The notes under the pieces were generated by a model. That model was not told where the DNA came from, did no database searches, and saw nothing but the letters and a program-made list of their open reading frames with translations. Made by a program: the position numbers and the translations under genes. Source: Pseudomonadota bacterium (GTDB taxonomy: Bacteria > Pseudomonadota > Gammaproteobacteria > Burkholderiales > JAJZQI01). From it: a stretch of DNA of 48,225 nt. Positions 3,611 through 24,641 of this stretch are shown here, piece by piece. Position 1 is the first letter of the stretch. Each line of letters starts with the position of its first letter. The stretch spans positions 1 to 48,225 of the forward strand of contig JAJZTZ010000003.1 of assembly GCA_021847305.1 (NCBI GenBank), in the 5' to 3' direction.

Positions 3611-5245
3611 CTATTTCTTTTTCGCCACCTCGGCCAGCGTATTCACTGCAATCACGCAGTGACTGCCCACCTCGTCGATCAAACCGGCATTTTTGACTTT
3701 TTCCGCCACATTACTGCGCATGCCGCACAGAATCAGGCGCGTGCCGTTTTTGTCGCATGACTTGAGCAGGCTCGCCAACGAACGCAAGCCGGTGGCATCA
3801 ATGATCGGCACCGCATGCATGCGCAGCACCAGAGTCTTGGTATGGCTTTGCAGGCGCTCCAGTGTGGTTTCGATACGCTCGGCCACGCCAAAGAAATACG
3901 GCCCTTCCATCGAGTACACCACCGTACCGGCCGGCCATTCCATGTCCTGATCAGCCAATTCGCTTTTCAACGCCTCTTCCGACTGCTGCTCCAGCACCAC
4001 GGTTTCCGACATGCGCTTCATGAACAGCAATACCGCCAGCAACACGCCAATATTGACCGCAATCACCAGATCGGCAAATACCGTGAGAACAAACGTAATC
4101 AGCATCACGACGACGTCGGCACGCGGTGCAGTCAGCAGGGTATGGCGAAAATGCCGCCACTCGCTCATGTTGTAGGCCACCACAAAGAGAATGGCCGCCA
4201 GTGCCGCCAGAGGAATCTGCGATGCCAGGGGTGCGAGCAACAGCACGATGAGAATCAGCGTGATCGAGTGCACGATGCCGGCCAGCGGACTGGTGCCGCC
4301 GTTGCGGATATTGGTGGCGGTTCGGGCGATGGCGCCGGTGGCGGCAAACCCGCCGAACAGCGGCGAAACCATATTGGCCAGCCCCTGCCCGACCAGCTCC
4401 TGATTGGAATCATGCCGCGTGCCAGCCATGCTGTCGGCCACCACCGCGGACAGCAACGATTCGATGGCACCCAGCAAGGCAATGGTGAAAGCCGGGCCGA
4501 TCAGACGCAGGACATCGTCGAACTGCATGCTCGGCAGGGAAAATGATGGCAATTGCTGCGGCAAGCCGCCGAACGTGCTGCCCAGTGTGGCCACTTGCGG
4601 TGAGTCCCAGAAACTTTGCAGCAGCGTGGCCGCCACCATGGCCACCAGCGGTGCCGGTACGCGCCGCAGCACCTTGGGCGAAAGCAGCAGAACAGCCAGG
4701 GTAAACGCGCCTAACAGGGTCGTCGGCACATTCAGTTGCGGCAGACTCTGTAGCAGGTGCCAGAGTTTTTCGTGAAAATGTGCATTGGCGCCGCCAGCCG
4801 GGTGCAGACCGAAAAAGTCCTTCCACTGACCGACGAAGATAATCACCGCAATACCGGCGGTAAATCCGGTGATGACGGGATCGGGAATAAAGCGGATAAC
4901 GTTGCCGAGCCGTGCCAGTCCCATGGCAAGCAGCATGACACCGGCCATCAGCGTGGCGATTTGCAAGCCGCTGATGCCATATTTGGCGGTGATACCCGCA
5001 AGAATAACGATGAAGGCACCGGTAGGGCCGGAAATCTGCACCCGGCTGCCGCCGAACAGACTGGTCATGAAACCGGCAACGATGGCGGTGTACAGGCCCT
5101 GTTCGGGCTTGGCTCCGCTGGCTATGGCAAAGGCCATGGCCAGCGGCAAGGCAACCACGCCGACGATTACACCTGCCAGAAGATTGGTCATCCAGTGCTG
5201 TCTGGAAAACAGCCCTGCCCGTTTTGCTTCGAGAAATGCAATCAT
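3611..5245 (-). CDS. SulP/SLC26-family anion (C4-dicarboxylate/bicarbonate/sulfate) transporter with STAS domain
   Basis: GVIVGVVALPLAMAFAIASG, GGSRVQISGPTGA, ESLLSA, GAIARTATN; C-terminal STAS (GPYFFG...IDATG). Confidence 0.92.
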   Translation of the reverse strand: MIAFLEAKRAGLFSRQHWMTNLLAGVIVGVVALPLAMAFAIASGAKPEQGLYTAIVAGFMTSLFGGSRVQISGPTGAFIVILAGITAKYGISGLQIATLMAGVMLLAMGLARLGNVIRFIPDPVITGFTAGIAVIIFVGQWKDFFGLHPAGGANAHFHEKLWHLLQSLPQLNVPTTLLGAFTLAVLLLSPKVLRRVPAPLVAMVAATLLQSFWDSPQVATLGSTFGGLPQQLPSFSLPSMQFDDVLRLIGPAFTIALLGAIESLLSAVVADSMAGTRHDSNQELVGQGLANMVSPLFGGFAATGAIARTATNIRNGGTSPLAGIVHSITLILIVLLLAPLASQIPLAALAAILFVVAYNMSEWRHFRHTLLTAPRADVVVMLITFVLTVFADLVIAVNIGVLLAVLLFMKRMSETVVLEQQSEEALKSELADQDMEWPAGTVVYSMEGPYFFGVAERIETTLERLQSHTKTLVLRMHAVPIIDATGLRSLASLLKSCDKNGTRLILCGMRSNVAEKVKNAGLIDEVGSHCVIAVNTLAEVAKKK

Positions 5246-5346
5246 CGCGCCTCACCACTGTATACACTGCAACATTACAATTATATAGGGCGAAAACACC
5301 CTGGCAGCAATATGGCTTTATGGCGGGCGAACGCCTGCCTCCCGAC

Positions 5347-5378
5347 AAAACAAAAAAGGGCTTCCACCGGAAGCCCTT
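5347..5378 (-). terminator. Rho-independent terminator, probably ending the exbD...phoX transcript
   Basis: Minus strand AAGGGCTTCC-GGT-GGAAGCCCTT followed by TTTTGTTTT. Confidence 0.75.
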
Positions 5379-5435
5379 GCACTGCCGCTGCAGACCGGAC
5401 AAATCCGGCCCCAGGGGCAAACACAGCATTCTTAA

Positions 5436-5587
5436 GCAAGCGCTGATTTATTCCATTTATGGAATAAATCAGCAGGGCGGCTGCGCGGCACATGTCCGCA
5501 CAGCCTCACACTTTCAATGACTTGCGTCATTGAGCGGCCGGGCGAGAAATCTGCCCGGCACGGAAACGCAAATAAATCAGCGTTTCC
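5436..5587 (-). mobile_element. MITE-like structured repeat, copy 1 (152 bp)
   Basis: Ends GCAAGCGCTGATTTA...TAAATCAGCGTTTCC, with TTAA on both sides (5432-5435, 5588-5591). Its reverse complement differs from 23569-23720 at 14 of 152 positions (hand count). Confidence 0.8.
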
Positions 5588-5617
5588 TTAAAACACGCTA
5601 TTGCGGCGCTTGCGCAC

Positions 5618-7519
5618 TCAGTCCAGTTTACCCAGCGGGATATAGCCGACCATGCCGCGCTTGTCGACGTGGCTGGCCATATCCTCGCGGATTTCCACCG
5701 GATACTTGCTCAGATCGTCGTCCGCTCCCGGATGCTGCACATTGGCCATGAGGTAGGCATAACCATCCGCCGTGACCACCGGAGCAAGGCCGGTCCATTC
5801 CGCGCCGATGGGCGCCGTGGCAAGGCGGGTCAGCTGACCGGAAACGGTATTGTAGGCCCACAGCATGTTGTTGAGATGGTTGCCGCTGTCTTCGCCGATG
5901 AACAGAGTGCGCATTTGTGGCGAATACTTGATGTTGTCGGGATTGCCGATGCGCTCCGGATCGCACTTGTCGTGACTGTCAGCCACCGGGTTGGGCCTGC
6001 CGGTCAGCAACGCGCGGGTAGCGCCTGCCACCCAGCGGCTGTTGATCGGTTTGCCGAGCATGTCGCGCGCCTGCGGCTGCAACGAAGACGCGTAAACGAC
6101 GCCGCAGGCAAGCGCGCCATCCGGATCGGACAGGGAAATATCGTTCTGCGGCCGTTCGCCGTTCTTGCCGGTTGGCATACCGCCCTCGGCGTACGACACG
6201 GCAAAGTACAGCTGCCGGTCAGCCGGATTGGAGGTCAAGCCTTCCATTTTGCTGAATTCGGTCGTTGCACCCAGGTAGGCCGCATAACGACGGGTTTCCA
6301 GGAATGCGGCGGTTTTTTCCATACCGGGTTTGAGCTTCAGATATTCCAGACGGGTGACCCCGCCGGTGCCACCATAGACAAATACCGGGCGGTAGCCGGC
6401 AAAGCGCTGCGGATTCTGCTGATAGCCTTCGGCGGTAACGAAGTCGAAGATTTCAGAGAAGCGCAGCTTGCTGCGGATCATGGACCGCACCTCGGCATCG
6501 GTGGCGTGTCCCAGGCGAATCCACTGCAGATTAGCCTTGCCGCCGTTGCTGCCGTCAGTCTGGTTCCACTTGGCCGCGTACAGGGTACCCGAGGACAGGT
6601 CACCGGCACGATCAGCCACGTACATCCCCATCATCACATCACGCCCGTCGTCGCTCAGGTATACGGTACGCCGGTCAGGCATGACGGTGCCGAGTTCATG
6701 GGAAAAGCGCCCCATGGAATAGTGCTTGACGATGTGCCCTGCGCCCCGGCTATCGACCCGGACTTCGGTAATAAAGCCATAGGCGTAGGGATTGGCACCG
6801 CCATCGCGAGTCAGCTTGCCGGACGTGCCAAGATAGGCATTCATGGCTTCCAGCGGCACGCGTTCGAAATTGCGCGCATCCGGCTCATATTCCTCGCTGC
6901 CCAGGTGCGTATTCCAGGGAGTTTTCTCGCCGGCGCAAGGGGTCCACAGACCGTCCACCGATTTCATGTCGACATTTTTCAGGCTGACAGCCTGCAATGC
7001 GCCGCTGGCCGGGTCCTGCTTCAGTGTGGCTACGTTGATCGCCATGGGCAGCTTGCCGTACAGATTAACCCGGGCCGGTGCCGCGCCAGTAGCGGGAGCA
7101 TCGGTATCGTACTCGAAGTGCGTCACCAGATAGTAGGCCGACTGCTTGCCGTTGCGCTGCTCAATCAGCGAGTTGGAATCCGGTCCTTTGGCATAGAACG
7201 GCCCCTGCCCCTCATGCGCCGACTCATCATAGCTGGTCAGCATGAGCGGCTTGCCTTCCCGGTTGACGATCTGGCCGGCCGGCCAGCCGCCCACCACGTC
7301 GCCGGAGTGGTAGAGCACGTGATAGGCCAACGGCAGGCTGCGCGCTGCGCCGTCCGCTCCGGTCACGCTGACACTGGCGCTGCTGTGTACCCGGGTCATT
7401 TCACTGGCACCGCTGGGCAGGGATGAGGGGGCAAAGCTCACCTCGGCCCCCTGCGCTGTGACACTGCACAGGGCCAGCAGGGCGGCGGTCAGGGGCTTGA
7501 GCATGATGCGTGATTTCAT
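5618..7519 (-). CDS. phoX: PhoX-family (DUF839) alkaline phosphatase
   Basis: Motifs CAGEKTPWNTHLGSEE, MGRFSHE, KMEG, NPDN, IGED, EWTG and NVQHP; N-terminal signal peptide. Confidence 0.85.
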   Translation of the reverse strand: MKSRIMLKPLTAALLALCSVTAQGAEVSFAPSSLPSGASEMTRVHSSASVSVTGADGAARSLPLAYHVLYHSGDVVGGWPAGQIVNREGKPLMLTSYDESAHEGQGPFYAKGPDSNSLIEQRNGKQSAYYLVTHFEYDTDAPATGAAPARVNLYGKLPMAINVATLKQDPASGALQAVSLKNVDMKSVDGLWTPCAGEKTPWNTHLGSEEYEPDARNFERVPLEAMNAYLGTSGKLTRDGGANPYAYGFITEVRVDSRGAGHIVKHYSMGRFSHELGTVMPDRRTVYLSDDGRDVMMGMYVADRAGDLSSGTLYAAKWNQTDGSNGGKANLQWIRLGHATDAEVRSMIRSKLRFSEIFDFVTAEGYQQNPQRFAGYRPVFVYGGTGGVTRLEYLKLKPGMEKTAAFLETRRYAAYLGATTEFSKMEGLTSNPADRQLYFAVSYAEGGMPTGKNGERPQNDISLSDPDGALACGVVYASSLQPQARDMLGKPINSRWVAGATRALLTGRPNPVADSHDKCDPERIGNPDNIKYSPQMRTLFIGEDSGNHLNNMLWAYNTVSGQLTRLATAPIGAEWTGLAPVVTADGYAYLMANVQHPGADDDLSKYPVEIREDMASHVDKRGMVGYIPLGKLD

Positions 7520-7549
7520 AAGGCAATACTTTCCAGACTGTCTTGTAGT

Positions 7550-9259
7550 TTACAACCCGCCCGCTGCCGGGCGGGAAAAATCGAACATATTCATCAGGTC
7601 ACCAATGGCCGGCCGATTCTCCGGCACATAAGGATTGGCTTTGCCATGCACCGGGTTGGGCAGATTGTCGCGGCTGCGCTGCGACAGGGTCGGCAAACCC
7701 CAGTTGCGTTCGATGAATTTAATGATCGAGGCATGATCGTAGTAGGTGTGGTCGATTTCGCCCTTGCGTGCGTAGGGCGATACAGCGATCAGCGGAATGC
7801 GTGTGCCGTCGCCGAAGAAATCGACGATCTGCACATAGCCGGAATCGTAGTAGCCGCCGCCTTCGTCAAAGGTCACGAGAATGGCGGTTTTCTTCCACAG
7901 TTCGGGATTGGACTGCACGCGCCGGACGATGTCCTGTACCAGCTCCTCGAAACCGGTTTCCATGGCATAACCGGGGTGACCGGATACGCTATCGTACGGG
8001 GCAATCACCGACACGGCCGGGAACGTTTTGGCGTTTTTCACATCGACATAGAAGCGTTGCAAATCCAGCAGTTTGCTCTTGTCCGGCCCGCTCATGGTGG
8101 AATGGAAGAACGTCTGCGTGTCACACATGCCACAGTATTCGCGGTCGGTCTTCTTGCCGTCATTGCGGCCACCGCTATACCACTTCCAGGACAGGCCGGC
8201 TTTGCTCATTGCATCGCCAATGCTGGGAATGATCTGCGGCGGCAGCAACCGGGTGCCCGGCCCCATCGGCAGCGAACGACCGTCTGCGGTATAGGATGGA
8301 TCGAGGTTGTTGACCATGTAATAGGCCCCCTCGGCACAGTTGCCGTTGTTGAACAGCTTGTACGGCAGAGTGCTGATATAGGCATTGATGGCCGATACGC
8401 CGGCGGCGTTGGGGTCGGCACAGTTGAGATAGCTGCCGCCATTTTCCACCAGTTGCTTGCCGCCCTTGAGCACATGCAGCTGAGTCACCAGGTTGGCCGG
8501 CGGCACGCCCATTTTGCCGTTTTCGGTATAGAAAGCGACATCGGCAGACGCCAGGGCAAAATAATTCTGCGCCGTGCCGCCCATGATGGACTGGTGGTAA
8601 TTGTCCGCAATCGAATACTGTTCAGCCAGCTTTTTGAAATACGGCGCGTCGCCCTGCGCCATGTTGTAAAAACCCATGGCAACGGCGCCCTGATAGGTCG
8701 GCACGGACTCCACCTGATCGACCTTATCGCCCAGATAAAAGCCGAAATGGTCGGCAGTCCAGACAAACAGATCGTTCTTACCGCCATTCACCTGCTGCCA
8801 CATCTGCAGGAAGCGGTGGATCGGATCCCCCGTATGCGCGCCATAGCTGACGTACTTGGTAATCTGGAACGGTCCGTTGGCAAGCTGCTGCGGGAATCGC
8901 GCATCCGGCACATCGTGCTGCTGGCCGAAAGCACCGGCGGCGTAGGGCTGCGGCAAAGATGCGTAATCGCCGGTAATGCGCGGCGTCGGACTGTAACCCT
9001 GGCTGGCATCGGCGGTGCGTTGCATGGCCAGATGATAGTTGGGCCCCGGTGTGCCATCGCTATTTACAATGCCGCGCGACAGGAGGTTCCATACTGTCTG
9101 CCCCTTGGGCGGCTGATACACGCCGTAGAGATTATCGAAGGTGCGGTTCTCCCCCACCACCACAATGACGTGTTCGATCGGCGTTTGCGCCTTGGGGGCG
9201 GCAAGCGCCACAAGCGGCGACAAAGCCAGGACAACAGCCGTTGCAATTCGTGACAGCAT
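7550..9259 (-). CDS. Phosphoesterase-family protein (AcpA acid phosphatase / phospholipase C superfamily)
   Basis: IEHVIVVVGENRTFDNLYG, DNYHQSIMGGT, SGHPG, TFDEGGGYYD, GTRIP and YDHASIIKFIE. Sec-type signal peptide from the ATG at 9259 (the ORF track extends to a TTG at 9280). Confidence 0.88.
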   Translation of the reverse strand: MLSRIATAVVLALSPLVALAAPKAQTPIEHVIVVVGENRTFDNLYGVYQPPKGQTVWNLLSRGIVNSDGTPGPNYHLAMQRTADASQGYSPTPRITGDYASLPQPYAAGAFGQQHDVPDARFPQQLANGPFQITKYVSYGAHTGDPIHRFLQMWQQVNGGKNDLFVWTADHFGFYLGDKVDQVESVPTYQGAVAMGFYNMAQGDAPYFKKLAEQYSIADNYHQSIMGGTAQNYFALASADVAFYTENGKMGVPPANLVTQLHVLKGGKQLVENGGSYLNCADPNAAGVSAINAYISTLPYKLFNNGNCAEGAYYMVNNLDPSYTADGRSLPMGPGTRLLPPQIIPSIGDAMSKAGLSWKWYSGGRNDGKKTDREYCGMCDTQTFFHSTMSGPDKSKLLDLQRFYVDVKNAKTFPAVSVIAPYDSVSGHPGYAMETGFEELVQDIVRRVQSNPELWKKTAILVTFDEGGGYYDSGYVQIVDFFGDGTRIPLIAVSPYARKGEIDHTYYDHASIIKFIERNWGLPTLSQRSRDNLPNPVHGKANPYVPENRPAIGDLMNMFDFSRPAAGGL

Positions 9260-9289
9260 GGACACTCTCTCTTTAGACAAAATTGACTG

Positions 9290-9892
9290 TTAACGCGCAC
9301 CCAGCAGAGTCAGCGTGATCAGCTTCATCTGATTGGTCACTTCTTCGGCTTTGCTGGTGAAATAGTTGAAGAACAACATGGCATACAGGGCAATAAAAAT
9401 ACCCACGCCGGTGGCGTACAGCGCCGTACCGATGCCGCGGCTCACCGCCGCCGGATCAGCTGCCACGCTGCCGGAAGACAGGCTGTAGAACGCGTCGATA
9501 ATACCGAGAATGGTGCCCATCAGGCCCAGCAACGGGGACAGGGTGACGATGGTATCGAGGATCCACAGCCGGGAGATCACTTTCGGCTGTTTGTCTACGT
9601 AAATCGATTGAGCGATGTATTCCATCTGCTCATGGCCATGGTTTTCCTTGGCCGCTTCAACCACCTCGCAGATCGCCTCGGCCTGCGGGCTTTTGTGTGA
9701 GCGGAACGCGTCGAGAATCTCGCCGTGCAAGGTCTTGTCGTGCAGGTGACTGCGCACGAAACTCACCACATCCTTGCCTTCACGCAGGATGGTGGAGAAA
9801 AAAATCATTCGTTCGATGATGAGATAAGTTGCGAGCAGAATTACTCCGCCCATGATGTACATCACGATGTCGTGAATCAGAGTGAACGTCAT
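9290..9892 (-). CDS. exbB: ExbB/MotA/TolQ proton-channel protein
   Basis: Three TM segments; SPLLGLMGTILGII and GIGTALYATGVG motifs. Confidence 0.88.
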   Translation of the reverse strand: MTFTLIHDIVMYIMGGVILLATYLIIERMIFFSTILREGKDVVSFVRSHLHDKTLHGEILDAFRSHKSPQAEAICEVVEAAKENHGHEQMEYIAQSIYVDKQPKVISRLWILDTIVTLSPLLGLMGTILGIIDAFYSLSSGSVAADPAAVSRGIGTALYATGVGIFIALYAMLFFNYFTSKAEEVTNQMKLITLTLLGAR

Positions 9893-9906
9893 GCCAAAAA
9901 TCCTTG

Positions 9907-9934
9907 AAAAAACCGGAACCCTTGCGGGTTCCGG
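9907..9934 (-). terminator. Intra-operonic terminator-like/stabilising hairpin after the receptor gene
   Basis: Minus strand CCGGAACCC-GCAA-GGGTTCCGG-TTTTTT, immediately before the AAGGA RBS of exbB. Confidence 0.7.
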
Positions 9935-9943
9935 GCTGCTGCT

Positions 9944-12145
9944 TTAGAACTTGCCTGTTACGCTGAAGAACGCCATGCGGGGTGCGCCAGCCTGCAGGGT
10001 CTGGGTGGTGCCGTTCGGATCGGAGTAACCGTAGCCGTTGGTGCCCATGGAGGAGAAGTACTGCTTATTGAACAGGTTGTTCACGTTCAGCTGCGCTCTC
10101 ACTTCCTTGAACATGCCTACGTTGCGGGTCTTGTAGCCCACGCCCAGGTTCCAGATCCAGCGCGGATCAACGTAGTTGTCGTTGGAGTAGGTGTAGTAAC
10201 GCTTGGAGGTGTAGTCGCCACCCAGACGGGTGAACCAGGCACCATCGTCATACGCCAGTTCGGTCTTGAAGGTCTGCTCCGGCACGCCGACAACCTGCTT
10301 GCCACTCACATACTGCACAGTGGTACCGTTGAGGTAGTTGTCCTTGTACTGGGTGCTGTTTACGCTCAGGGCGTTGAACCACGACCAGTTGCGCGCCATC
10401 TTCCAGTTCAGGCCCAGATCGAAACCGTTGGACTCAACCTTGCCCACGTTGGCCAGCACGCTCGGGTTGCCGACGATACCGGCGCCGCTGCTGATGCTCA
10501 GCAGACGGTCGTAGAAGTCCACGTGGTACAAGGACAGCACACCGTCAAGCTTGTCGCCGTGGAAACGCCAGCCGCCTTCATAGGTAGTGGACGTTTCCGG
10601 GCGCAGATTGCCCTGAATGGCAGCAAAACCAGCCTGGGTAGTGCTGAACGGCTGGGTGTACAGCGCACGCATGTTCTGTGCGATACCGGCGAACAGTTCG
10701 TTGGACTGATCCAGCTTGTACACCATGCCCACCTGCGGCAGGAACGATTTCTTCGAGGTAATGGTACCGGACGGGTAGTTGGCACCGGTGGTTTCGTTGC
10801 CGGTCACATCAACGCGCGGCGACTTGAAGCCGACATTCACGGTCAGGCGCGGCGACACGGTGATGGTGTCCTGGGCAAACCACTGCAGGGTCTTTTCGGT
10901 GTAATTGAACGCCCAGTCGGTACGGAACGGATTGGACGGAATCACATACGGATCCAGCGCAGCAGCTGCCGTGTTCGCGTAGTAGCGACGGGCCTGATTG
11001 AATTTATCATTTTCATACCACAGGCCACCCTCGATCTTGTGCTTGTCCAGGGTATAGGTCAGTGTCGAGATCAAACCGCTGCGATTGATATCGTATTCGG
11101 TCGTACGGGTAGACGGAACGGTCGTGCCCGGGCTGAATACATACGGGGTCCACCACAAACCGGCACCGCGGTTGTTGTGGTTGTAAACAGTATTTTTCCA
11201 ACGCAGATGGTCGTTGATCTTGGCATCCAGGGTCACGCCGGACAGGTAATCGCGGCGCAGGCCAGAACCGGCATAGTAGGCATCATCCTTGGAGGTTTCG
11301 CCGCTGGTCCAGATACCGTTGGCGGAATCAATCGCCTTCTGCCAGTCCGGATAGTAGTTGTCCCAGTTGTAACCCAGACGGCTGGCCATTTCCTTGGACA
11401 GATCCTGGTAGTCGATTTCCTGACGGTCGGACCAGTTCAGGAAGGCGGACAGTTTGCTTTCACCGAAGAACTGCACGTATTTGGTGTTGATCTGCTTGTA
11501 ACGCTGCTCGCCGTGACCTTTCCACTTATCGGAATTCTGGTCCACGCCGCTGATGTAAAACTTGCCGCCGTTGCTCAGGCGACCGGTGTCCAGACGCACG
11601 AAGGTACGGCGTGCACTGTCGCTGCCCAGCATCTGGCTGGCGGTTACGCCAAACTCTTCTTCCGGATCGGTGGAGTAGAACTGCATGGTACCGCCCAGGT
11701 TACTGGTGGATGCGGTATCCAGCGAACCGGTACCCTGCGATACCTGCACGCGGCCGATGTTTTCGGAAGAAATCGCACGGGCAATGCTCAGACCGTTGTG
11801 GTTGCCGTAGCTCAGGTCACCCAGCGGAATATCGTCCAGGGTGTAACCAAGCTGGCTGGAACTGAAGCCGCGCACGCTCAGGTTGGTCGACCATTCATAG
11901 GCACCGTAGGTGTCGCTGGACTCGAAGTGCACACCCGGCACCTTGTCCAGCACTTTCAGCGGACTGCTGCCCGGTGCGGAATCCTCAATATCCTTTTTGG
12001 TGATGTTCTGCACCTGACGGGTCTGCCCCTGGCCGAACACGGTAATGTCTTCAGTCTGAACAGTATCGTCCTGCGCATAGGCGCTGCTGACCAGCGTGGC
12101 AGCGATCAGCACCGCCAGCGGACGTAAGCGAAACGCGTTACTCAT
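9944..12145 (-). CDS. TonB-dependent outer-membrane receptor
   Basis: Signal peptide, TonB-box-like EDITV, plug motifs (KVPGV, SVRGF, GGTMQF), alternating beta-strands, NNLFNKQY and terminal Phe. Confidence 0.95.
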   Translation of the reverse strand: MSNAFRLRPLAVLIAATLVSSAYAQDDTVQTEDITVFGQGQTRQVQNITKKDIEDSAPGSSPLKVLDKVPGVHFESSDTYGAYEWSTNLSVRGFSSSQLGYTLDDIPLGDLSYGNHNGLSIARAISSENIGRVQVSQGTGSLDTASTSNLGGTMQFYSTDPEEEFGVTASQMLGSDSARRTFVRLDTGRLSNGGKFYISGVDQNSDKWKGHGEQRYKQINTKYVQFFGESKLSAFLNWSDRQEIDYQDLSKEMASRLGYNWDNYYPDWQKAIDSANGIWTSGETSKDDAYYAGSGLRRDYLSGVTLDAKINDHLRWKNTVYNHNNRGAGLWWTPYVFSPGTTVPSTRTTEYDINRSGLISTLTYTLDKHKIEGGLWYENDKFNQARRYYANTAAAALDPYVIPSNPFRTDWAFNYTEKTLQWFAQDTITVSPRLTVNVGFKSPRVDVTGNETTGANYPSGTITSKKSFLPQVGMVYKLDQSNELFAGIAQNMRALYTQPFSTTQAGFAAIQGNLRPETSTTYEGGWRFHGDKLDGVLSLYHVDFYDRLLSISSGAGIVGNPSVLANVGKVESNGFDLGLNWKMARNWSWFNALSVNSTQYKDNYLNGTTVQYVSGKQVVGVPEQTFKTELAYDDGAWFTRLGGDYTSKRYYTYSNDNYVDPRWIWNLGVGYKTRNVGMFKEVRAQLNVNNLFNKQYFSSMGTNGYGYSDPNGTTQTLQAGAPRMAFFSVTGKF

Positions 12146-12201
12146 CTAAAACCCCCTGATTAATTGGCACTTTTATAAATAAACCGGCATATGGCCGCCG
12201 G

Positions 12202-12900
12202 CTAGTAGTTGATGGAGAAGACCAGTTTGGTACGGAACTCTTTCTGGTTTTCACCAACCCAGGCGTCTGCCGGAAATGCAGCAAAAGAGGCAGAACGAAC
12301 GGCACGCAAAGCCGCCTGATCGAGCAGCGGATAACCCGATGACTTGGTTACTTCCGCGGAAACAAGTTTGCCGGTGCGATCCAGCACATAGAGAATCTCG
12401 ACCGCGCCGGCCATCCCCAGGTCGCGGGCGCTGTCGGGATATACCTTGTTGTGTTCGATTTGCGCGCGCACATCCTTGGCGAAGCGCCCCTCCGCGGCTG
12501 CATTACTCTGCGGCGGGCTGGGCGGTGCCGGCGGGATGGTTTTGGCTTCTGCGGCAACCGGCGCCACGGGCACGCTCACCGGGTTCGATTCCGGCACCGG
12601 TGAAGGCTTGGCCGCCACCGGAGTCACCGGTGTTTGCTTTACCGGTTCGGGCTTGCTTTCGTGATGCACAGGCTGGGGCGGTTTGGGCGGTTCAATTGGC
12701 TTGGGTGGCTCGACCGGTTTGGGCTGCTCTACCGGCGGTTCGGCCAGCGTGACCTCAATCGGCGTCTCCGGCGGCAAGGGATCATGGCGGATCGCCAAAT
12801 GGGTGATGGCGAACGCCAGCATGATCCCTGCCAGCATGGCGCCACCCTGGGCAAACCACTCGCGCTTGTCGTAAACCAGCGGAATTGCAACGGCTGTCAT
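12202..12900 (-). CDS. tonB: TonB energy transducer
   Basis: One N-terminal TM, Pro-rich EP/KP linker, C-terminal domain (YPDSARDLGMAG...SSGYPLLDQAAL). Confidence 0.9.
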   Translation of the reverse strand: MTAVAIPLVYDKREWFAQGGAMLAGIMLAFAITHLAIRHDPLPPETPIEVTLAEPPVEQPKPVEPPKPIEPPKPPQPVHHESKPEPVKQTPVTPVAAKPSPVPESNPVSVPVAPVAAEAKTIPPAPPSPPQSNAAAEGRFAKDVRAQIEHNKVYPDSARDLGMAGAVEILYVLDRTGKLVSAEVTKSSGYPLLDQAALRAVRSASFAAFPADAWVGENQKEFRTKLVFSINY

Positions 12901-12915
12901 ATTCCCTCCTGTCCC

Positions 12916-13323
12916 TTATTTCCGGGCAGAAGCGATGGCAATGGAGGTAATGCCGGACGACTTGACCGTATCCATCACATCCACCAGTTGCTGTACCGAA
13001 GCATCGCGATCGCTGTTGACTACAACGTCTATGTCCTTGCCGCTTTGCTTGAGTTTCACCAGTTCCGCCTTAAGCGAGACCAGCGTCTGGTTCTGGCCGT
13101 CCAGCTGGATCACACCGCTCTTGCTCACGGTGACCACCACATGGACCCGCACATCGAGCTTTTCCGGCTGGCCAGCGGTCGGCAATTTGGTTTTGATTCC
13201 CAGCGCAGGTATCACGTGCAGACTGATCAGCACAAAGAACACCAGGAGAAACATCATCACGTCGATCATCGGGATGATTTCGATACGGGCCTTGCGGCGA
13301 GGCTCTTCGTGCCAGAACAACAT
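12916..13323 (-). CDS. exbD: ExbD/TolR biopolymer transport protein
   Basis: IEIIPMIDVMMFLLVFFV (conserved TM Asp), periplasmic domain ending DVMDTVKSSG; AAGGA RBS. Confidence 0.92.
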   Translation of the reverse strand: MLFWHEEPRRKARIEIIPMIDVMMFLLVFFVLISLHVIPALGIKTKLPTAGQPEKLDVRVHVVVTVSKSGVIQLDGQNQTLVSLKAELVKLKQSGKDIDVVVNSDRDASVQQLVDVMDTVKSSGITSIAIASARK

Positions 13324-13377
13324 TGCTGTTTCCTTAAAACTCTTAATTAAATCGGTTAGATCAAATCTAAGAGCGGC

Positions 13378-13462
13378 ACTATATAAGCAAGTAATTACAT
13401 ACCGATTAACCTTTTATTTCATTTATTTACTCCGTTACAAAACGATGCAAATGGTGTTACAG
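13378..13462 (-). promoter_or_regulatory. Candidate PhoB-dependent promoter (tandem Pho-box-like repeats plus -10)
   Basis: Minus strand CTGTAAC-N4-TTTGCAT-N4-TTGTAAC (13462-13434), then ATGAAAT-N4-GGTTAAT-N4-ATGTAAT (13422-13394), then exactly 10 bp, then TATAGT (13383-13378). Confidence 0.6.
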
Positions 13463-13500
13463 GCTGAAGGGTTTTAGCCGGACAAAGCAGAAATAATTAA

Positions 13501-13627
13501 GGAAGCACTGATTTAATCGCGCTTCCGTGCCGGGCAGATTTTTCGCCCGGTCGCTCAATGGCATTAGTCATTGAAAGCGTGAGGCCGTACGGACATGCGC
13601 CGCGCAGCCGCCTTAATCAGCACTTTC
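13501..13627 (+). mobile_element. MITE-like structured repeat, copy 2 (127 bp, short form)
   Basis: TTAA-GGAAGCACTGATTTAA...TTAATCAGCACTTTC-TTAA. Colinear with copies 1 and 3 but lacks the terminal hairpin module (25 bp shorter). Confidence 0.78.
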
Positions 13628-13765
13628 TTAAGGGTACGATTGCGTGTAACAGCGCACCGGACAACAGATGCGGTCAATGTTTTCCTGTCACAGCAAATTC
13701 ATTGGAAATTCATGGACAAACCGGCAAGACTTGCCATCTGCAGGACCGACTTGCGGCGCATTTTT

Positions 13766-13774
13766 TGTTATGAT
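13766..13774 (+). promoter_or_regulatory. Candidate extended -10 promoter of cstA
   Basis: TG-T-TATGAT about 45 bp upstream of the cstA start; no good -35. Confidence 0.35.
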
Positions 13775-13817
13775 GTGCAACACCTAAAACGAGACCAAAT
13801 AGCGAGACTCCACAATC

Positions 13818-15896
13818 ATGATGCCAGAACCACGAATCATGTCCCTGATCGGCTGGGTGCTGATTTCCCTCATCGGCGCATCGGCGCTGGGCGGCATTGC
13901 CTTGCATCGCGGCGAAGAAATCAATTCCCTCTGGTTCATCACCGCCGCCATCTGCGTCTACGCCATCGGCTACCGTCTGTACGCCGCCTGGATTGCAGCC
14001 AAGGTGCTGGTTCTGGATGAAACCCGCGCTACTCCGGCAGAGCGCCTTAACAATGGCCGCGACTTCATCCCCACCAACAAATGGATCGTCTTCGGCCATC
14101 ACTTTGCTGCCATTGCCGGCCCCGGCCCGCTGGTCGGCCCCACTCTGGCGGCACAGTTCGGCTATCTGCCGGGTACGCTGTGGATTCTGATCGGCGGCGT
14201 GCTGGGTGGCGCAGTGCAGGATATGGTCACGCTATTCTTCTCCGTTCGCCGTAACGGCCGCAGCCTGGGCCAGATGGCCCGCGACGAACTCGGCCCAATC
14301 GGCGGTAGCGCGGCGCTGATCGGCACGCTGATGATCATGATCATCCTTATCGCCGTGCTCGGTCTGGTGGTGGTTAATGCCATGAAGCACAGCCCCTGGG
14401 CCACATCCACCGTTTTCGCCACCATTCCCATTGCCATGTTTGTCGGCCTGTATATGCGTAACATCCGCCCCGGCCGCGTTCTCGAAGGTTCGCTGATCGG
14501 TGCGGCGCTGCTGCTGCTTGCCGTAGTGGGCGGCGGCTGGGTCGACCACAACGCCTCGCTGCGCGGTCTGTTTGACCACGAAGGCCTGACACTGGCCTGG
14601 TTCGTCATCGGTTACGGTTTCCTGGCCGCCATCATGCCGGTTTGGCTGCTGCTGGCGCCGCGCGATTACCTGTCCACCTTCATGAAACTCGGCACCATCG
14701 CCCTGCTGGCCATCGCAATTCTGCTGCTGCAACCGATGATCAAAATGCCGGCCGTCACCCAGTTCATCGACGGCAGCGGACCAATTTTCGGCGGCAAGCT
14801 GTTCCCCTTCGTATTCATCACCATCGCCTGTGGCGCGATATCCGGCTTCCATGCCCTGATTTCCTCCGGCACTACGCCCAAACTGCTGGCCAACGAGCGG
14901 GATATTCCCCTGATCGGTTATGGCAGCATGCTGCTGGAATCCTTTGTTGCCCTGATGGCCATGATTGCCGCGAGCGTACTGGAACCCGGCGTGTTTTTTG
15001 CCATCAACAGCCCGGCCGGCGTGGTTGGTAAGGAAGCCGCCGATGCTGTAGCCATGATCTCCTCCTGGGGCTTTCCGGTTAGCGTCGAACAGATGCAGGG
15101 GCTGGCCAGGGAAATGGGCGAAGCCACCCTGTTTGCCCGTACCGGCGGGGCGCCGTCGCTGGCAGTCGGCATGGCCTCGATCTTCGGCAGTGCTTTCGGT
15201 CAGGGACTGCTGGCCATGTGGTATCACTTTGCCATCATGTTCGAGGCCATTTTCATCCTCACCACTCTCGATGCCGGCACCCGTGTTGGCCGCTTCATGC
15301 TGCAGGACATGCTTGGCAACGTCTACAAGCCGCTCGGTCAGACCTCCTGGTATCCCTCGGTCATTCTCACCAGCGCACTGGTGGTGGCGGCCTGGGGCTA
15401 CTTCCTCTACATTGGTGTGATTGACCCGAACGGCGGCGTCAACCTGCTGTGGCCGCTGTTCGGCATTTCCAACCAGATGCTCGCCGCCATCGCCCTGTCG
15501 GTGGGGACCGCAATCATTATCAAGTCCGGCAAGCTGAAATACGCCTGGGTGACCGGCGTACCGCTGGCCTGGCTGGCCGTCATCACCACCACAGCATCGT
15601 GGCAAAAACTGATGAGCGATGATGTCCGGGTCGGTTTTCTCTCTGCCGCCGACGCCATGGCGCACAAACTCGCCAGCGGTACCCTGCCGCCGGAGAAGGC
15701 CGCTGTCGCGCCGCAGCTGATCTTCAACCTGCAGCTGGATGCAGCGCTCACCCTGTTTTTTGTCGCGGTGCTGTGGATCGTGATCCTCGACATGCTGCGT
15801 ATGGCCAGCCGCCATCTTGCCGGCAAGCCGGTTCTGCCCCTGGCAGAAGCGCCGCATGAACCGAGCCGGCTGGTGGAAGACTGGGTACGCGACTGA
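13818..15896 (+). CDS. cstA: Carbon starvation protein A family transporter (CstA/BtsT; peptide or pyruvate uptake)
   Basis: [49 protein letters not shown] and [11 protein letters not shown]; many TM segments. Exact start (13818, 13821 or 13839) uncertain. Confidence 0.95.
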
Positions 15897-23158: not shown

Positions 23159-23584
23159 ATGTCCATCCACTGCAAAATCAACCACCCCGTCAGCACCGAG
23201 TCGTTCGTCGATCTGTTGCATGCATCAGGTCTGGCAGCGCGCCGACCGGTGCATGACCGGGACTGCATGGAAGGCATGGTGAAAAACGCCAATCTGACCG
23301 TGACGGCATGGGATGGGGACAGACTGGTGGGAGTGGCACGGTCGCTGACCGACTTCCATTATGCCTGCTATCTATCCGACCTGGCCGTGCATGCCGATTA
23401 TCAGCAACAGGGCATTGGCAAACTGTTGCTGCGCACAACCCGGCAGCAACTGGGCCAGAAATGTAAACTGATCCTGATCGCCGCCCCGGCCGCCAACGAT
23501 TATTACGAACACCTGGGTTTTGCCAGCAATCCGCGGTGCTGGGTGCTGGACAGCGACAGTCCGCTCAAGGAAACGCTGATTTAA
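23159..23584 (+). CDS. GNAT-family N-acetyltransferase
   Basis: LVGVARSLTD, YLSDLAV, YQQQGIGKLL and YYEHLGF. The last codons and stop lie inside MITE copy 3. Confidence 0.88.
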   Translation: MSIHCKINHPVSTESFVDLLHASGLAARRPVHDRDCMEGMVKNANLTVTAWDGDRLVGVARSLTDFHYACYLSDLAVHADYQQQGIGKLLLRTTRQQLGQKCKLILIAAPAANDYYEHLGFASNPRCWVLDSDSPLKETLI

Positions 23585-23720
23585 TCGCGTTTCCGTGCCG
23601 GGCAGGGTTTTCGTCCGGCCGCTCAATGACGCAAGTCATTGAAGGCGTGAGGTTGTGCGGACAGGTGCCGCGCAACCGACCCGCTGATTTATTCCATAAA
23701 TGGAATAAATCAGCGCTTCC
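23569..23720 (+). mobile_element. MITE-like structured repeat, copy 3 (152 bp)
   Basis: GGAAACGCTGATTTA...TAAATCAGCGCTTCC with imperfect flanks (TCAA and TTAC); sits between convergent genes. Confidence 0.8.
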
Positions 23721-24641
23721 TTACGGACTGACCGCCATGGATGGCTCCCAGATAAGGGTTGTGTTGCGTCCAGCCCTTTTGGCAGCGTACATGGCCTGAT
23801 CGGCCTCCTCAATGCTGCGCTCGACTGATATATCGGCTGCCAGCTGCGCCACGCCGAATGACATGGCGATATGCAATTCAACGCCATTGCCGGCATCGAT
23901 CGGCAGCGCCGCCAGACCGATACGCAAGCGTTCGACCACTTCATAGGCTGTCTTGACGTCGGTATTCTGCATACACAGCAGGAATTCCTCTCCGCCATAA
24001 CGAAACAGTTTGTCGTAGGGGCGGATATGCTCCAGCATGAAACGCGCTACGGCTGACAGCACTTTGTCACCGCTTGCATGCCCGTAAGTATCGTTGACCG
24101 TCTTGAAGCAATCGATGTCCATCATCGACACGCAACTGGGCTGGACGTTGCGCCTGACCAGTTCATGCTGCTCGCGCAAGCGGGTCAGCATGCCGATGCG
24201 GCTATATGCGCCGGTCAGTCCATCCAGGTTGTAGAGCTCGCTTTCCAGTTCGCGCTTGATTGTTGCCATTTCCAGGCGCATGCGTCCAAGCGCGGCAGCA
24301 AAGGCGTCGTACTCTTCAGCGGGCACAGGGTGGCAGGCTTCCGTCTTCACCAACAGATCGGCCGCCAGGCGGTGCATGGATTTGTGATCTTCTTCCATGG
24401 CGATGAAACCAGGATGCTGGCGCAGCTTGTCCGGCACGGTGCTGTAGTACCACTGCCCCAGGCGACACAAGCGGTGTGCGTCTTCTGCCACATCGTTCTT
24501 GCTGTACGGCAAATGGCAAACCATGGTGCGCGTAATGGCGTCAAACCATTCGGTGTGACTGGCAATCGCCAGGTCCAGCTGCTTGATGATTTCCAGCATT
24601 TCGCTCTGTCGAGCATTATCCACGCGCCGTCTCCTGTTCAT
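23721..24641 (-). CDS. CZB-domain diguanylate cyclase (DgcZ/YdeH-like)
   Basis: CZB zinc ligands H(TEW), C(RLGQWYY) and H(KSM)H; DIDCFKTVND, RPYD I-site and GGEEF. Confidence 0.9.
   Translation of the reverse strand: MNRRRRVDNARQSEMLEIIKQLDLAIASHTEWFDAITRTMVCHLPYSKNDVAEDAHRLCRLGQWYYSTVPDKLRQHPGFIAMEEDHKSMHRLAADLLVKTEACHPVPAEEYDAFAAALGRMRLEMATIKRELESELYNLDGLTGAYSRIGMLTRLREQHELVRRNVQPSCVSMMDIDCFKTVNDTYGHASGDKVLSAVARFMLEHIRPYDKLFRYGGEEFLLCMQNTDVKTAYEVVERLRIGLAALPIDAGNGVELHIAMSFGVAQLAADISVERSIEEADQAMYAAKRAGRNTTLIWEPSMAVSP

What the first reader, a model, noticed from the sequence alone, without database searches (positions are those of the whole stretch)
5618..13462. Self-contained TonB-dependent organophosphate acquisition locus: private ExbD-TonB-ExbB motor, receptor and two unrelated exported phosphatases under Pho-box-like control
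Seen: six tightly spaced co-oriented genes (gaps of about 15-56 bp): exbD, tonB, receptor, exbB, AcpA/PLC-family phosphoesterase, phoX. There are Pho-box-like repeats upstream and a terminator downstream. I see no Fur-box-like palindrome, siderophore genes or ABC genes. Established: TonB receptors mainly import iron chelates, B12 and glycans; PhoX and AcpA/PLC enzymes release Pi from phosphoesters; PhoX needs an Fe/Ca cofactor. Inference: a phosphorus analogue of a polysaccharide utilisation locus, actively importing a bulky phosphorylated substrate (phospholipid fragments, nucleotides, phytate or polyphosphate) for stepwise or acid/alkaline-complementary hydrolysis in the periplasm. Alternatively the receptor supplies metal for PhoX. 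This is the best candidate here for an undescribed system.
Basis: partly seen in the sequence, partly recalled or inferred. Interest (0 to 1): 0.8.

Follow-up and report, generated by a model that had tools for sequence, protein, structure and literature searches.

The report
Phosphate-starvation TonB import and phosphatase locus
A sulfur-oxidiser-like betaproteobacterium keeps an outer-membrane importer, its motor and two exported phosphatases in one block that looks phosphate-starvation controlled, most likely to scavenge organic phosphorus; the idea is known from other bacteria, but this receptor family is untested.

Summary
Six minus-strand genes lie at 5618-13323: exbD, tonB, a TonB-dependent receptor (TBDR), exbB, an AcpA/PLC-family phosphoesterase and a divergent PhoX-family protein. 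Unrelated genes flank them.

The phosphorus reading is supported by comparison, not by experiment.
- At least 32 of 80 related receptor loci carry a phosphatase gene (AcpA-like, PhoD or NPP) within four genes.
- The same six-gene order recurs in 6 Gallionellaceae loci.
- Pho-box-like repeats precede the receptor in 34 of 58 non-sulfur loci and in 0 of 7 sulfur-linked ones.
- No Fur box or iron-transport gene was found at the locus.

- A conserved terminator-like hairpin separates the receptor from exbB.
- The motor is not shown to be "private". It is the only ExbB-ExbD pair outside Tol-Pal found in this 85%-complete assembly.
- phoB and phoR were not found in the assembly.

Some cousins of the receptor sit beside choline-sulfatase and taurine ABC genes. 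The family therefore seems to serve scavenging of anionic esters, mostly of phosphorus.

Pho-regulated receptor-phosphatase loci are already described (Bacteroidota Pus systems, Caulobacter). I rate this a new variant of a known kind. The substrate is unknown.

The parts
13434..13462 (-). Distal Pho-box-like direct repeats with an 11-nt period: CTGTAAC (13462-13456), TTTGCAT (13451-13445), TTGTAAC (13440-13434).
   Evidence: Read. Consensus scores are 11.5 and 11.0. 56 of 2000 shuffles of the 200-nt upstream region reach the best score.
13380..13411 (-). Proximal Pho-box-like pair GGTTAAT-cggt-ATGTAAT, then 8 nt, then TATATA (a -10-like hexamer). It lies about 55 nt before the exbD start.
   Evidence: Read. 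The genome's own pstS promoter has the same layout: TGGTCAT-attt-CTGTAAT, 8 nt, TATAGA. So do Gallionella loci L012 and L020. The consensus score is only 10, below my threshold of 11.
12916..13323 (-). exbD (135 aa)
   Evidence: PF02472, E 9.3e-28. All NCBIfam ExbD and TolR equivalogs score below their cut-offs.
12202..12900 (-). tonB (232 aa)
   Evidence: PF03544 TonB_C, E 1.4e-15; TIGR01352 at 55.3 bits, over its cut-off of 27.1.
9944..12145 (-). TonB-dependent receptor (733 aa). It has a signal peptide, a short N-terminus without a signalling extension, and a terminal Phe.
   Evidence: PF07715 Plug and PF00593 barrel. The siderophore-receptor subfamily TIGR01783 scores 123.7 bits, below its cut-off of 223.5. 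Best named homologues are Sulfuriferula sp. AH1 at 83% and Sulfurimicrobium lacus at 81%. The best solved structure is FecA, E 1.5e-12, over the C-terminal half only.
9913..9934 (-). Intrinsic-terminator-like hairpin (9 pairs, 7 of them G-C, followed by T6) between the receptor and exbB.
   Evidence: Found. An equivalent hairpin followed by a T-rich run is present in all 10 other motor-type loci folded. In the consensus fold of 9 spacers, 6 of 8 pairs show a compensatory change.
9290..9892 (-). exbB (200 aa)
   Evidence: PF01618, E 3.5e-26.
7550..9280 (-). AcpA/PLC-family phosphoesterase (576 aa from the TTG; the probable start is the ATG at 9259). It has a Sec-type signal peptide.
   Evidence: PF04185, E 1.5e-60. 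TIGR03397 scores 194.6 bits (cut-off 362.75) and TIGR03396 scores 128.6 bits (cut-off 580), both below their cut-offs. PDB matches: acid phosphatase 2d1g, E 1.1e-21, and phospholipases C. The signal peptide is read.
5618..7519 (-). Divergent PhoX-family protein (633 aa) with a Sec-type signal and no twin arginine.
   Evidence: PF05787 at 84.4 bits, cut-off 24. AlphaFold model with mean pLDDT 91. Best Foldseek hit is P. fluorescens PhoX 3zwu, E 4.5e-20, TM 0.55-0.60, 16% identity; the next hit has E 2.5e-7. phmmer against PDB gives 2.4e-8.
5356..5378 (-). Terminator-like hairpin (10 pairs plus a T run) downstream of the locus.
   Evidence: Found. It lies beyond the repeat copy at 5433-5591 and before the sulP promoter-like site at 5280-5307.

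Best explanation
This is a phosphate-starvation locus for active scavenging of phosphorus compounds.

Proposed mechanism:
1. Under Pi limitation, a PhoB-type activator binds the direct repeats upstream of exbD and drives exbD-tonB-receptor.
2. A conserved hairpin after the receptor attenuates, or processes, the message that continues into exbB, the AcpA-like phosphoesterase and the PhoX-like phosphatase.
3. The receptor is energised by TonB-ExbB-ExbD. It carries a scarce phosphorus-bearing solute across the outer membrane. The solute is most likely an organophosphate ester such as a phospholipid head group, a nucleotide or a phosphodiester.
4. The two Sec-exported enzymes release Pi in the periplasm.
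5. PstSCAB takes up the Pi.

Shown here: the gene content, its conservation, the linkage of the receptor family to phosphatases, and the Pho-box-like sites.

Inferred: induction by Pi limitation, the periplasmic location of the enzymes, the direction of flow, and the substrate.
For: 1. Gene identities.

2. Conserved order. The order exbD-tonB-TBDR-exbB-AcpA-PhoX recurs in 6 of 80 related loci, all Gallionella or Sideroxydans (L012, L020, L025, L033, L038, L050). L051 has it without phoX. In an even sample of 199 other genomes of the same order, 4 hold the receptor. Their contexts are motor plus AcpA in 2, PhoD plus an SBP in 1, and a sulfatase in 1.

3. Linkage to phosphatases. 32 of 80 loci have an AcpA-like (16) or PhoD/NPP (16) gene within four called genes. 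The count is 35 if a weak NPP-like cluster is included; only one representative of it was scanned.

4. Pho-box-like sites upstream of receptor homologues (p <= 0.05 against shuffles):
- AcpA class: 6 of 8.
- SBP6-ABC class: 2 of 2.
- MCP/GGDEF class: 10 of 13.
- PhoD/NPP class: 9 of 15.
- Unlinked class: 7 of 20.
- Sulfatase class: 0 of 3.
- Taurine-ABC class: 0 of 4.

5. Sites upstream of exbD in motor-type loci reach p <= 0.05 in 4 of 10, the window included. The window's proximal site has the layout of the genome's own pstS promoter. An OlsB/OlsA-like pair elsewhere in the genome lies behind four such repeats.

6. No iron signal. There is no Fur-consensus match at up to 3 mismatches near the locus. 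The receptor scores below the cut-off of NCBI's siderophore-receptor subfamily.

7. Habitat. Three studies have runs that hold half or more of the stretch's words; their runs are labelled mine drainage, sediment and groundwater. The relatives that carry the locus are iron oxidisers, where iron shortage is unlikely (my inference).
Against: - No expression data: no RNA run holds the locus.
- PhoB and PhoR equivalogs were not found over their cut-offs in this 85%-complete assembly. The best PhoB-model hit scores higher as OmpR.
- The window's own Pho-box score is only modestly above chance (56 of 2000 shuffles). The test uses a recalled E. coli consensus.
- 6 of 10 motor-type loci show no significant site by this test.
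- The hairpin after the receptor could end transcription. The enzymes would then be separately controlled. No Pho-box scoring 11 or more lies in the 260 nt before exbB.
- 45 to 48 of the 80 receptor loci have no recognised phosphatase nearby.
- The substrate was not tested in any way.
- Whether the enzymes stay in the periplasm is unknown.
- PhoB control of an iron-uptake gene is reported for Synechocystis (PMC11126600, passages). A Pho box therefore does not by itself exclude metal import.
Confidence: 0.62

Rival explanations
1. Metal supply. The receptor imports an iron (or other metal) complex needed to load the Fe/Ca cofactor of PhoX during phosphate starvation. It does not import a phosphorus compound.
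For: PhoX and PhoD are described as Fe-dependent, and PhoB is reported to control an iron-uptake gene in Synechocystis (PMC11126600, passages). The nearest solved receptors are iron transporters: FecA at 1.5e-12, FepA-like and FoxA. PhoD and PhoX are among the linked enzymes.
Against: - 9 of 80 loci pair the receptor with an AcpA-like enzyme alone. Others pair it with NPP-type enzymes. Cousins sit beside choline-sulfatase or taurine ABC genes. No single metal need explains these.
- There is no Fur-consensus match near the locus.
- There is no periplasmic iron-binding or ABC gene in the locus or its flanks.
- The receptor scores below the siderophore-receptor cut-off.
- Carriers include iron oxidisers, and sources include mine drainage.
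Confidence: 0.08
2. Inorganic or condensed phosphorus import. The receptor takes up polyphosphate, pyrophosphate, or phosphate bound in a metal or mineral complex. The two enzymes act on other substrates, or outside the cell.
For: Pho-type control and linkage to phosphatases fit any phosphorus source. The runs that hold the locus come from iron-rich settings. That phosphate is sorbed to iron oxides in such settings is my own knowledge.
Against: The linked genes across the family are esterases and diesterases (AcpA/PLC, PhoD, NPP, PhoX). Some loci also have DeoR/GlpR-type regulators and a weakly PhnS-like binding protein. The sulfur-linked cousins sit by enzymes and transporters for organic sulfur compounds. 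Both observations point to organic solutes.
Confidence: 0.12
3. House-keeping motor. The exbD-tonB-exbB genes are the cell's general TonB motor and serve all three receptors. Their position beside a receptor and two phosphatases is historical, not one dedicated system.
For: Only two ExbD-family genes were found in the assembly: this one and tolR in a full ybgC-tolQRA-tolB-pal operon. Three TBDRs and three TonB_C proteins are present. The similarity is mosaic: the window's ExbB and ExbD are 72-75% identical to Gallionella's while its receptor is 50%, whereas the receptor is 71% identical to L003 but ExbD only 47%. A terminator-like hairpin lies within the block.
Against: The same interleaved order, with the receptor between tonB and exbB, is kept in 11 loci of several families. 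This argues for co-function. The assembly is 85% complete, so a second motor may simply be unassembled. Pho-box-like sites sit in front of exbD.
Confidence: 0.1

Closest known systems
Phosphate utilisation systems (Pus; PusCD) of Flavobacterium johnsoniae and other Bacteroidota. Sources: preprint 10.64898/2026.09.03.749221, of which I read the abstract, introduction and discussion; and PMC8115612, seen only as a search listing.
   Same: A TonB-dependent transporter is clustered with phosphatases and phosphate-responsive control. PusCD1 and PusCD2 are reported as essential for growth on phosphatidylinositol and glycerophosphoinositol as phosphorus sources.
   Different: Pus transporters are SusC-like and work with a SusD-like surface lipoprotein. 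No such gene is in this locus. The locus here is in Pseudomonadota, carries its own exbD-tonB-exbB, and has AcpA-like and PhoX-like enzymes. Homology between the receptors was not tested.
TonB-dependent receptors of the Caulobacter crescentus PhoB regulon (10.1101/2023.10.07.561339, one passage), and the ElpS/CC0171 pair (PMC2996285, passages).
   Same: [quoted passage not shown] A Caulobacter sp. locus (L072) holds a 47%-identical receptor with a Pho-box-like site.
   Different: In what I read, no substrate is shown and no motor or phosphatase genes are described beside those receptors. Which Caulobacter gene, if any, is the orthologue is not known; the regulon lists are in supplements that I could not open.
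exbB2-exbD2-tonB4 (PA0693-PA0695) of Pseudomonas aeruginosa (PMC7035377, passages).
   Same: A TonB motor listed among the genes of the VreI/VreR regulon, which the paper ties to phosphate starvation. [quoted passage not shown]
   Different: It has the usual exbB-exbD-tonB order and no receptor gene between the motor genes. It is controlled through the sigma factor VreI. Its neighbours are a two-partner secretion system and genes of unknown function.
SftP, the TonB-dependent receptor of the ats-sft sulfate-ester cluster of Pseudomonas putida S-313 (PMC7711191, one passage; the primary papers are recalled, not seen).
   Same: A receptor clustered with esterases and an ABC importer for scavenging an anionic ester. 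This matches the choline-sulfatase and taurine-ABC cousins of this receptor.
   Different: It serves sulfur, not phosphorus. Homology of SftP to this family was not tested.
Phytate-specific TBDTs (PMC3400609, passage). The adjacency of beta-propeller phytase genes to TBDR genes is recalled, not seen.
   Same: A receptor in Pseudomonadota proposed to take up an organophosphate.
   Different: No phytase gene was seen in any of the loci examined here.

Membership tests
TonB-dependent transporter (receptor) | An N-terminal plug domain followed by a 22-strand barrel domain. | tested here: met
   PF07715, E 6e-14, and PF00593, E 2e-44.
TonB-dependent transporter (receptor) | A TonB box near the mature N-terminus and a C-terminal aromatic residue. 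| tested here: inconclusive
   The protein ends in ...TGKF. A stretch EDITVFG follows the signal peptide. The motif definition is recalled, and no model was scored.
TonB-ExbB-ExbD energy transducer | One gene of each of the three families is present. | tested here: met
   PF02472, PF03544 and PF01618 all score over their cut-offs. None reaches an NCBIfam equivalog cut-off.
PhoX alkaline phosphatase | Membership of Pfam PF05787 and the PhoX beta-propeller fold. | tested here: met
   84.4 bits against a cut-off of 24. Foldseek gives 3zwu at E 4.5e-20 and TM 0.55-0.60; the next hit has E 2.5e-7.
PhoX alkaline phosphatase | The Fe/Ca-binding active-site residues, including the cysteine ligand. | tested here: inconclusive
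   In the HMMER alignment to PhoX 4amf (the same stretch matches 3zwu), the stretch around Cys195, the following EE, GRFSHE and DD align with identical residues. These positions are invariant in 34 homologues. The full ligand list was not available to me; the role of the cysteine is recalled.
PhoX alkaline phosphatase | A twin-arginine (Tat) export signal, as in the characterised PhoX enzymes (recalled; a predicted Tat signal is mentioned for one Ramlibacter PhoX in PMC5768637). | tested here: not met
   The N-terminus MKSRIMLKPLTAALLALCSVTAQGAEV has no RR pair. It reads as a Sec signal.
AcpA / phospholipase C phosphoesterase family | Membership of Pfam PF04185. | tested here: met
   E 1.5e-60 over the full profile. 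PDB acid phosphatase 2d1g, E 1.1e-21.
AcpA / phospholipase C phosphoesterase family | Equivalence to Burkholderia-type acid phosphatase (TIGR03397) or to phosphocholine-specific PLC (TIGR03396). | tested here: not met
   194.6 bits against a cut-off of 362.75, and 128.6 bits against 580.25. It is a separate subfamily.
Pho regulon member | A Pho box (7-nt direct repeats with an 11-nt period) replacing the -35 element. | tested here: inconclusive
   The distal repeats score 11.5, with 56 of 2000 shuffles as high. The proximal pair matches the layout of the pstS promoter but scores 10. Family-wide enrichment is 34 of 58 loci against 0 of 7 sulfur-linked loci.
Pho regulon member | PhoB/PhoR present in the genome. 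| tested here: not met
   No hit exceeds the cut-offs of TIGR02154 or TIGR02966. The best PhoB-model hit scores higher as OmpR. PhoU and PstS are present. The assembly is 85% complete.
Pho regulon member | Induction by phosphate limitation. | not testable with these tools
   No RNA run holds the locus.
Bacteroidota Pus / SusCD-like system | A SusD-like surface lipoprotein gene next to the transporter. | tested here: not met
   All six genes belong to other families, and the gaps are 56 nt or less.
Siderophore / iron TonB uptake locus | A Fur box, a siderophore-type receptor, and periplasmic binding protein and ABC genes. | tested here: not met
   No Fur-consensus match at up to 3 mismatches near the locus. 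TIGR01783 scores below its cut-off. No such genes in the locus or its flanks.

The most novel reading that the evidence does not exclude
This receptor belongs to a large, uncharacterised family of Pseudomonadota TonB-dependent transporters specialised for small anionic esters and onium compounds. The family is used for nutrient scavenging rather than for metals or glycans.

Most members would be Pho-regulated importers of organophosphates, for example phosphocholine or phosphoethanolamine head groups, or nucleotides. Repeated offshoots would have switched to organosulfur compounds such as choline-O-sulfate or taurine.

In small-genome lithoautotrophs (Sulfuricellaceae, Thiobacillus, Gallionellaceae) the receptor travels as a cassette. 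It sits between the motor genes, and a conserved attenuator after it sets the receptor-to-enzyme ratio. This would give 'inorganic' chemolithotrophs an energised route to organic phosphorus.
Probability: 0.4. Interest if true: 0.65.

Novelty: new variant of a known kind. Interest (0 to 1): 0.5.

Why it matters
TonB receptors and ExbB/ExbD/TonB genes in iron- and sulfur-oxidising Betaproteobacteria are usually read as iron or siderophore uptake. One example is PMC13664910 (passages).

If the phosphorus reading is right, part of that machinery belongs to the phosphorus budget instead. Lithoautotrophs from the mine drainage, sediment and groundwater sources sampled here would then actively import organic phosphorus.

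It would also extend to Pseudomonadota a principle shown only recently in Bacteroidota, namely energy-dependent outer-membrane import of organophosphorus. The receptor family here is different, widespread and tractable. Janthinobacterium, Duganella, Roseateles and Caulobacter carry relatives with strong Pho boxes. The family's mix of phosphorus- and sulfur-linked members could reveal how specificity for anionic esters evolves.

Tried and rejected
Searches and checks that led nowhere:
- Expression: no RNA holder is listed for the locus.
- Presence/absence polymorphism between the flanking repeats: contigs of four DNA runs cover the locus at about the depth of its flanks in three of them. No joint skips the whole locus. 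I therefore dropped the idea of a recently inserted island bounded by the inverted repeats. The repeat has at least 40 copies genome-wide.
- Rfam scan of 5200-13900: only a sub-threshold GcvB match (24.6 bits against 42), overlapping the repeat copy at 5433-5591 and the spacer beyond it. I take it as chance.
- A Pho-box in front of exbB, which would make a second Pho promoter: none scoring 11 or more in the window or in 9 of the 10 orthologous loci. The one 11-point hit, in L050, lies inside the hairpin.
- IQ-TREE through treekit did not finish in the time limit. The tree used is FastTree with SH-like support only.
- phmmer of the receptor against PDB at E <= 1e-10: no hit.
- Earlier scan notes by place and by sequence: nothing.

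Literature searches found no paper describing this receptor family or the six-gene cluster. Two Gallionellaceae genome papers (passages only) do not mention it. One Burkholderia Pi-limitation proteome lists TBDRs only among the depleted proteins.

Tools not used: complex prediction, the protein-atlas search, the search of protein representatives and a structure model of the receptor.

Full report
**What is there**

The window is contig C2 of a 2.38-Mb, 184-contig assembly rated 85% complete. On its minus strand lie six genes with gaps of 15, 56, 51, 9 and 30 nt.

| Gene | Coordinates | Evidence |
|---|---|---|
| exbD | 12916-13323 | PF02472 |
| tonB | 12202-12900 | PF03544 |
| TonB-dependent receptor, 733 aa | 9944-12145 | Plug + barrel |
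| exbB | 9290-9892 | PF01618 |
| AcpA/PLC-family phosphoesterase | 7550-9280 | PF04185, E 1.5e-60 |
| PhoX-family protein | 5618-7519 | PF05787, 84 bits, partial profile |

- The phosphoesterase reaches neither NCBI's Burkholderia-type acid-phosphatase model nor its phosphocholine-PLC model. It matches acid phosphatase 2d1g (E 1e-21) and several phospholipases C in PDB.
- The PhoX-like protein is distant from characterised PhoX (phmmer 2.4e-8). An AlphaFold model built on 34 of the 120 listed homologues has mean pLDDT 91. Its best Foldseek hit is P. fluorescens PhoX (E 4.5e-20, TM 0.55-0.60, 16% identity), and the next hit has E 2.5e-7.
- Both enzymes begin with Sec-type signal peptides. The PhoX-like one has no twin arginine (read directly).
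- The flanks are unrelated: SulP/DauA-like and CstA, and further out AurF-like, TPR, GGDEF and PhzF-like genes.

**Control signals**

- Upstream of exbD lie three 7-nt repeats with an 11-nt period (13434-13462). Closer in is a pair, GGTTAAT-n4-ATGTAAT, followed after 8 nt by TATATA (13380-13411).
- The genome's own pstS promoter has the same layout. An OlsB/OlsA-like pair on another contig lies behind four GTCAC-type repeats. Its NCBIfam top hits are below their cut-offs.
- In a crude test with a recalled E. coli half-site, 56 of 2000 shuffles of the window's 200-nt upstream region reach the observed score. This is suggestive only.
- The only Fur-consensus match at up to 3 mismatches in the window is inside cstA.
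- PhoU and PstS are present. PhoB and PhoR equivalogs were not found, and the best PhoB-model hit is better read as OmpR. This may reflect the missing 15% of the genome.

**An internal hairpin**

- Between the receptor and exbB lies a 9-bp GC-rich hairpin followed by T6 (9913-9934).
- All 10 other loci with the motor arrangement have a hairpin of different sequence, followed by a T-rich run, at the same place.
- I gave 9 of the 11 spacers to the consensus fold. L033 was left out as near-identical to L025, and L084 because its spacer is longer. In that fold, 6 of 8 pairs show compensatory change.
- No Pho-box-like site scoring 11 or more precedes exbB in the window.
- I read this as an attenuator or RNA-end structure that sets receptor expression apart from exbB and the enzymes. 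It also means that 'one operon' is not established.

**Relatives**

- The receptor has 2846 homologues at E <= 1e-20 among 7999 scored candidates. The best named ones are Sulfuriferula sp. AH1 (83%) and Sulfurimicrobium lacus (81%).
- I made a profile from 15 of the 120 listed hits and scanned one genome per species. Of 580 confirmed matches the best 80 loci were kept, at 45-71% identity.
- tblastn with the window's six proteins finds all six genes in the same order in 6 loci, all Gallionella or Sideroxydans. L051 has the motor plus AcpA. L004 (Thiobacillus) has the motor plus receptor, with PhoD downstream. L003 (Sulfuricellaceae) has the motor plus receptor at a contig end. Nine loci have a receptor-AcpA pair.
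- I then called ORFs, clustered them, and scanned cluster representatives with Pfam and NCBIfam. My ORF caller missed the receptor in 4 loci, which I added from tblastn. This adds 15 loci with PhoD and/or NPP-type phosphodiesterases. These often come with a DeoR/GlpR-type regulator and an ABC importer whose binding protein is weakly PhnS-like.
- In all, 32 of 80 loci have a phosphatase within four called genes. The count is 35 with a weak NPP-like cluster of which only one member was scanned.
- Ten loci are sulfur-type instead. Six have a choline-sulfatase (one representative scanned: TIGR03417, 816 bits against a cut-off of 433). Four have an ABC system with a taurine-type binding protein (one representative scanned: TauA model, 388 bits against a cut-off of 304).
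- Fourteen loci, most of them Duganella and other Oxalobacteraceae, have MCP or GGDEF-EAL neighbours. The remaining 21 have nothing recognisable.
- In an even sample of 199 other genomes of the same order, only 4 hold the receptor at E <= 1e-150. Their contexts are motor plus AcpA twice, PhoD plus a binding protein once, and a sulfatase once.

**Pho boxes across the family**

I scored the up-to-270-nt stretch upstream of the receptor against 300 shuffles in 68 loci. Eight loci were skipped because less than 100 nt was available, and 4 because no receptor gene was called.

| Neighbour class | Loci with p <= 0.05 |
|---|---|
| AcpA | 6 of 8 |
| SBP6-ABC | 2 of 2 |
| MCP/GGDEF | 10 of 13 |
| PhoD/NPP | 9 of 15 |
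| Unlinked | 7 of 20 |
| Sulfatase | 0 of 3 |
| Taurine-ABC | 0 of 4 |

- Many sites are near-canonical, for example ATGTCATGCAACTGTCAT.
- The three motor-class rows in that call fall inside tonB and are not informative.
- Related loci are not independent, so these are counts and not a statistical test. The contrast with the sulfur-linked members is a useful internal control.

**Tree and mosaicism**

- The tree is FastTree on 82 receptors, with SH-like support only.
- The window groups with L003 and L004 (support 100). Its sister group, with supports of 87 and 93, holds one AcpA-linked locus and the choline-sulfatase/taurine clade.
- The Gallionellaceae six-gene loci fall elsewhere, with the Oxalobacteraceae.
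- Yet the window's ExbD and ExbB are 72-75% identical to Gallionella's and only 47-48% to those of L003 and L004. Receptor and motor have therefore been re-assorted between cassettes.
- Sulfur linkage arises at least twice on the tree.

**Is the motor private?**

- The assembly holds three TBDRs and three TonB_C proteins over the cut-off.
- It holds only two ExbD-family genes: this one and tolR, inside a complete ybgC-tolQRA-tolB-pal operon.
- The other two MotA/ExbB-family hits have no ExbD-family partner.
- In what is assembled, this locus therefore carries the only ExbB-ExbD pair. 'Private' cannot be claimed.

**Interpretation**

The best reading (about 0.6) is a Pi-starvation locus. The receptor, energised by TonB-ExbBD, imports a scarce phosphorus-bearing solute, most likely an organic ester. 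The two exported enzymes hydrolyse it, and Pst takes up the Pi. The gene content, its conservation, the phosphatase linkage and the Pho-box enrichment are shown. Induction, enzyme location and substrate are inferred.

The substrate is open.
- AcpA/PLC-type enzymes and the choline-sulfate and taurine cousins hint at phospholipid head groups.
- NPP-type enzymes hint at nucleotides. So does an earlier, unchecked scan note on a similar cassette (e1-5267707).

The rivals are metal supply for PhoX (0.08), inorganic or condensed phosphorus import (0.12) and a general house-keeping motor (0.10). Their evidence is set out in the Rival explanations section.

**Comparison with what is known**

- Pus clusters of Bacteroidota combine a TBDT, phosphatases and Pi control. 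PusCD1 and PusCD2 are now reported as essential for growth on phosphatidylinositol (preprint; abstract, introduction and discussion read).
- P. aeruginosa has an uncharacterised exbB2-exbD2-tonB4 set listed in the VreI/VreR regulon, which the paper ties to phosphate starvation.
- P. putida SftP is a TBDR in a sulfate-ester cluster.
- Phytate-specific TBDTs have been proposed.
- The present locus works like these but is not a member of Pus, since it has no SusD-like partner. Its receptor family, interleaved motor and conserved hairpin were not found described in ten literature searches. Supplements were closed.

**Verdict**

The locus is a new variant of a known kind, of moderate interest.

Noticed in passing
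window 5433-5591, 13497-13612, 23567-23723: A repeat of about 116-157 nt flanks the locus as inverted copies (87% complementary). It has a third copy in the window and at least 40 matches across the 2.38-Mb assembly. It contains a 33-nt palindrome (5441-5473). Contigs of public runs break at its edges, and its depth is about 20 times that of the flanks. It looks like a REP- or MITE-like element and is not specific to the locus.
   Followed up: partly
window 9913-9934; L004, L012, L020, L025, L033, L038, L050, L051, L083, L084 between the receptor and exbB: A conserved terminator-like hairpin lies between the receptor gene and exbB in every motor-type locus. The stem sequences differ between loci.
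   Followed up: yes
window 9290-13323 compared with L003, L004, L012, L020: Mosaic similarity. ExbD and ExbB are 72-75% identical to Gallionella's, but the receptor only 50%. The receptor is 71% identical to a Sulfuricellaceae MAG whose ExbD is 47% identical. Receptor and motor appear to have been re-assorted.
   Followed up: partly
L005, L006, L049, L063, L068, L071, L085 (sulfatase); L039, L044, L065, L066 (taurine-type ABC): Receptors 45-52% identical to the window's sit beside a sulfatase or a taurine-type ABC importer. One representative of each was scanned and reaches the choline-sulfatase and TauA equivalog cut-offs. In the 7 of these loci that could be scored there is no significant Pho-box-like site upstream. 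This looks like a sulfur-scavenging branch of the same family.
   Followed up: partly
L011, L018, L019, L022, L024, L036, L045 and others (Duganella, Rugamonas): Receptor homologues flanked by an MCP chemoreceptor and GGDEF-EAL genes carry some of the strongest Pho-box-like sites (scores 12-13). No phosphatase gene lies nearby.
   Followed up: no
G000 contig C155, about 9250-9288 (locus L087): Four tandem GTCAC-type repeats with an 11-nt period lie upstream of an OlsB-like/OlsA-like gene pair. This would fit Pho-controlled synthesis of a phosphorus-free ornithine lipid.
   Followed up: partly
G000, whole assembly: No PhoB or PhoR equivalog scores over its cut-off, although PstS and PhoU are present. 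There are only three TonB-dependent receptors, and one ExbB-ExbD pair outside Tol-Pal.
   Followed up: partly
window 14333-14351: The only Fur-consensus-like match in the window (3 mismatches) lies inside the cstA coding region. It is probably chance.
   Followed up: no
L017 12219-13682: In one Burkholderiaceae genome the gene after the receptor is an MFS protein with weak similarity to NTP/NDP exchange (TLC) transporters. This is a hint towards nucleotides as cargo.
   Followed up: no
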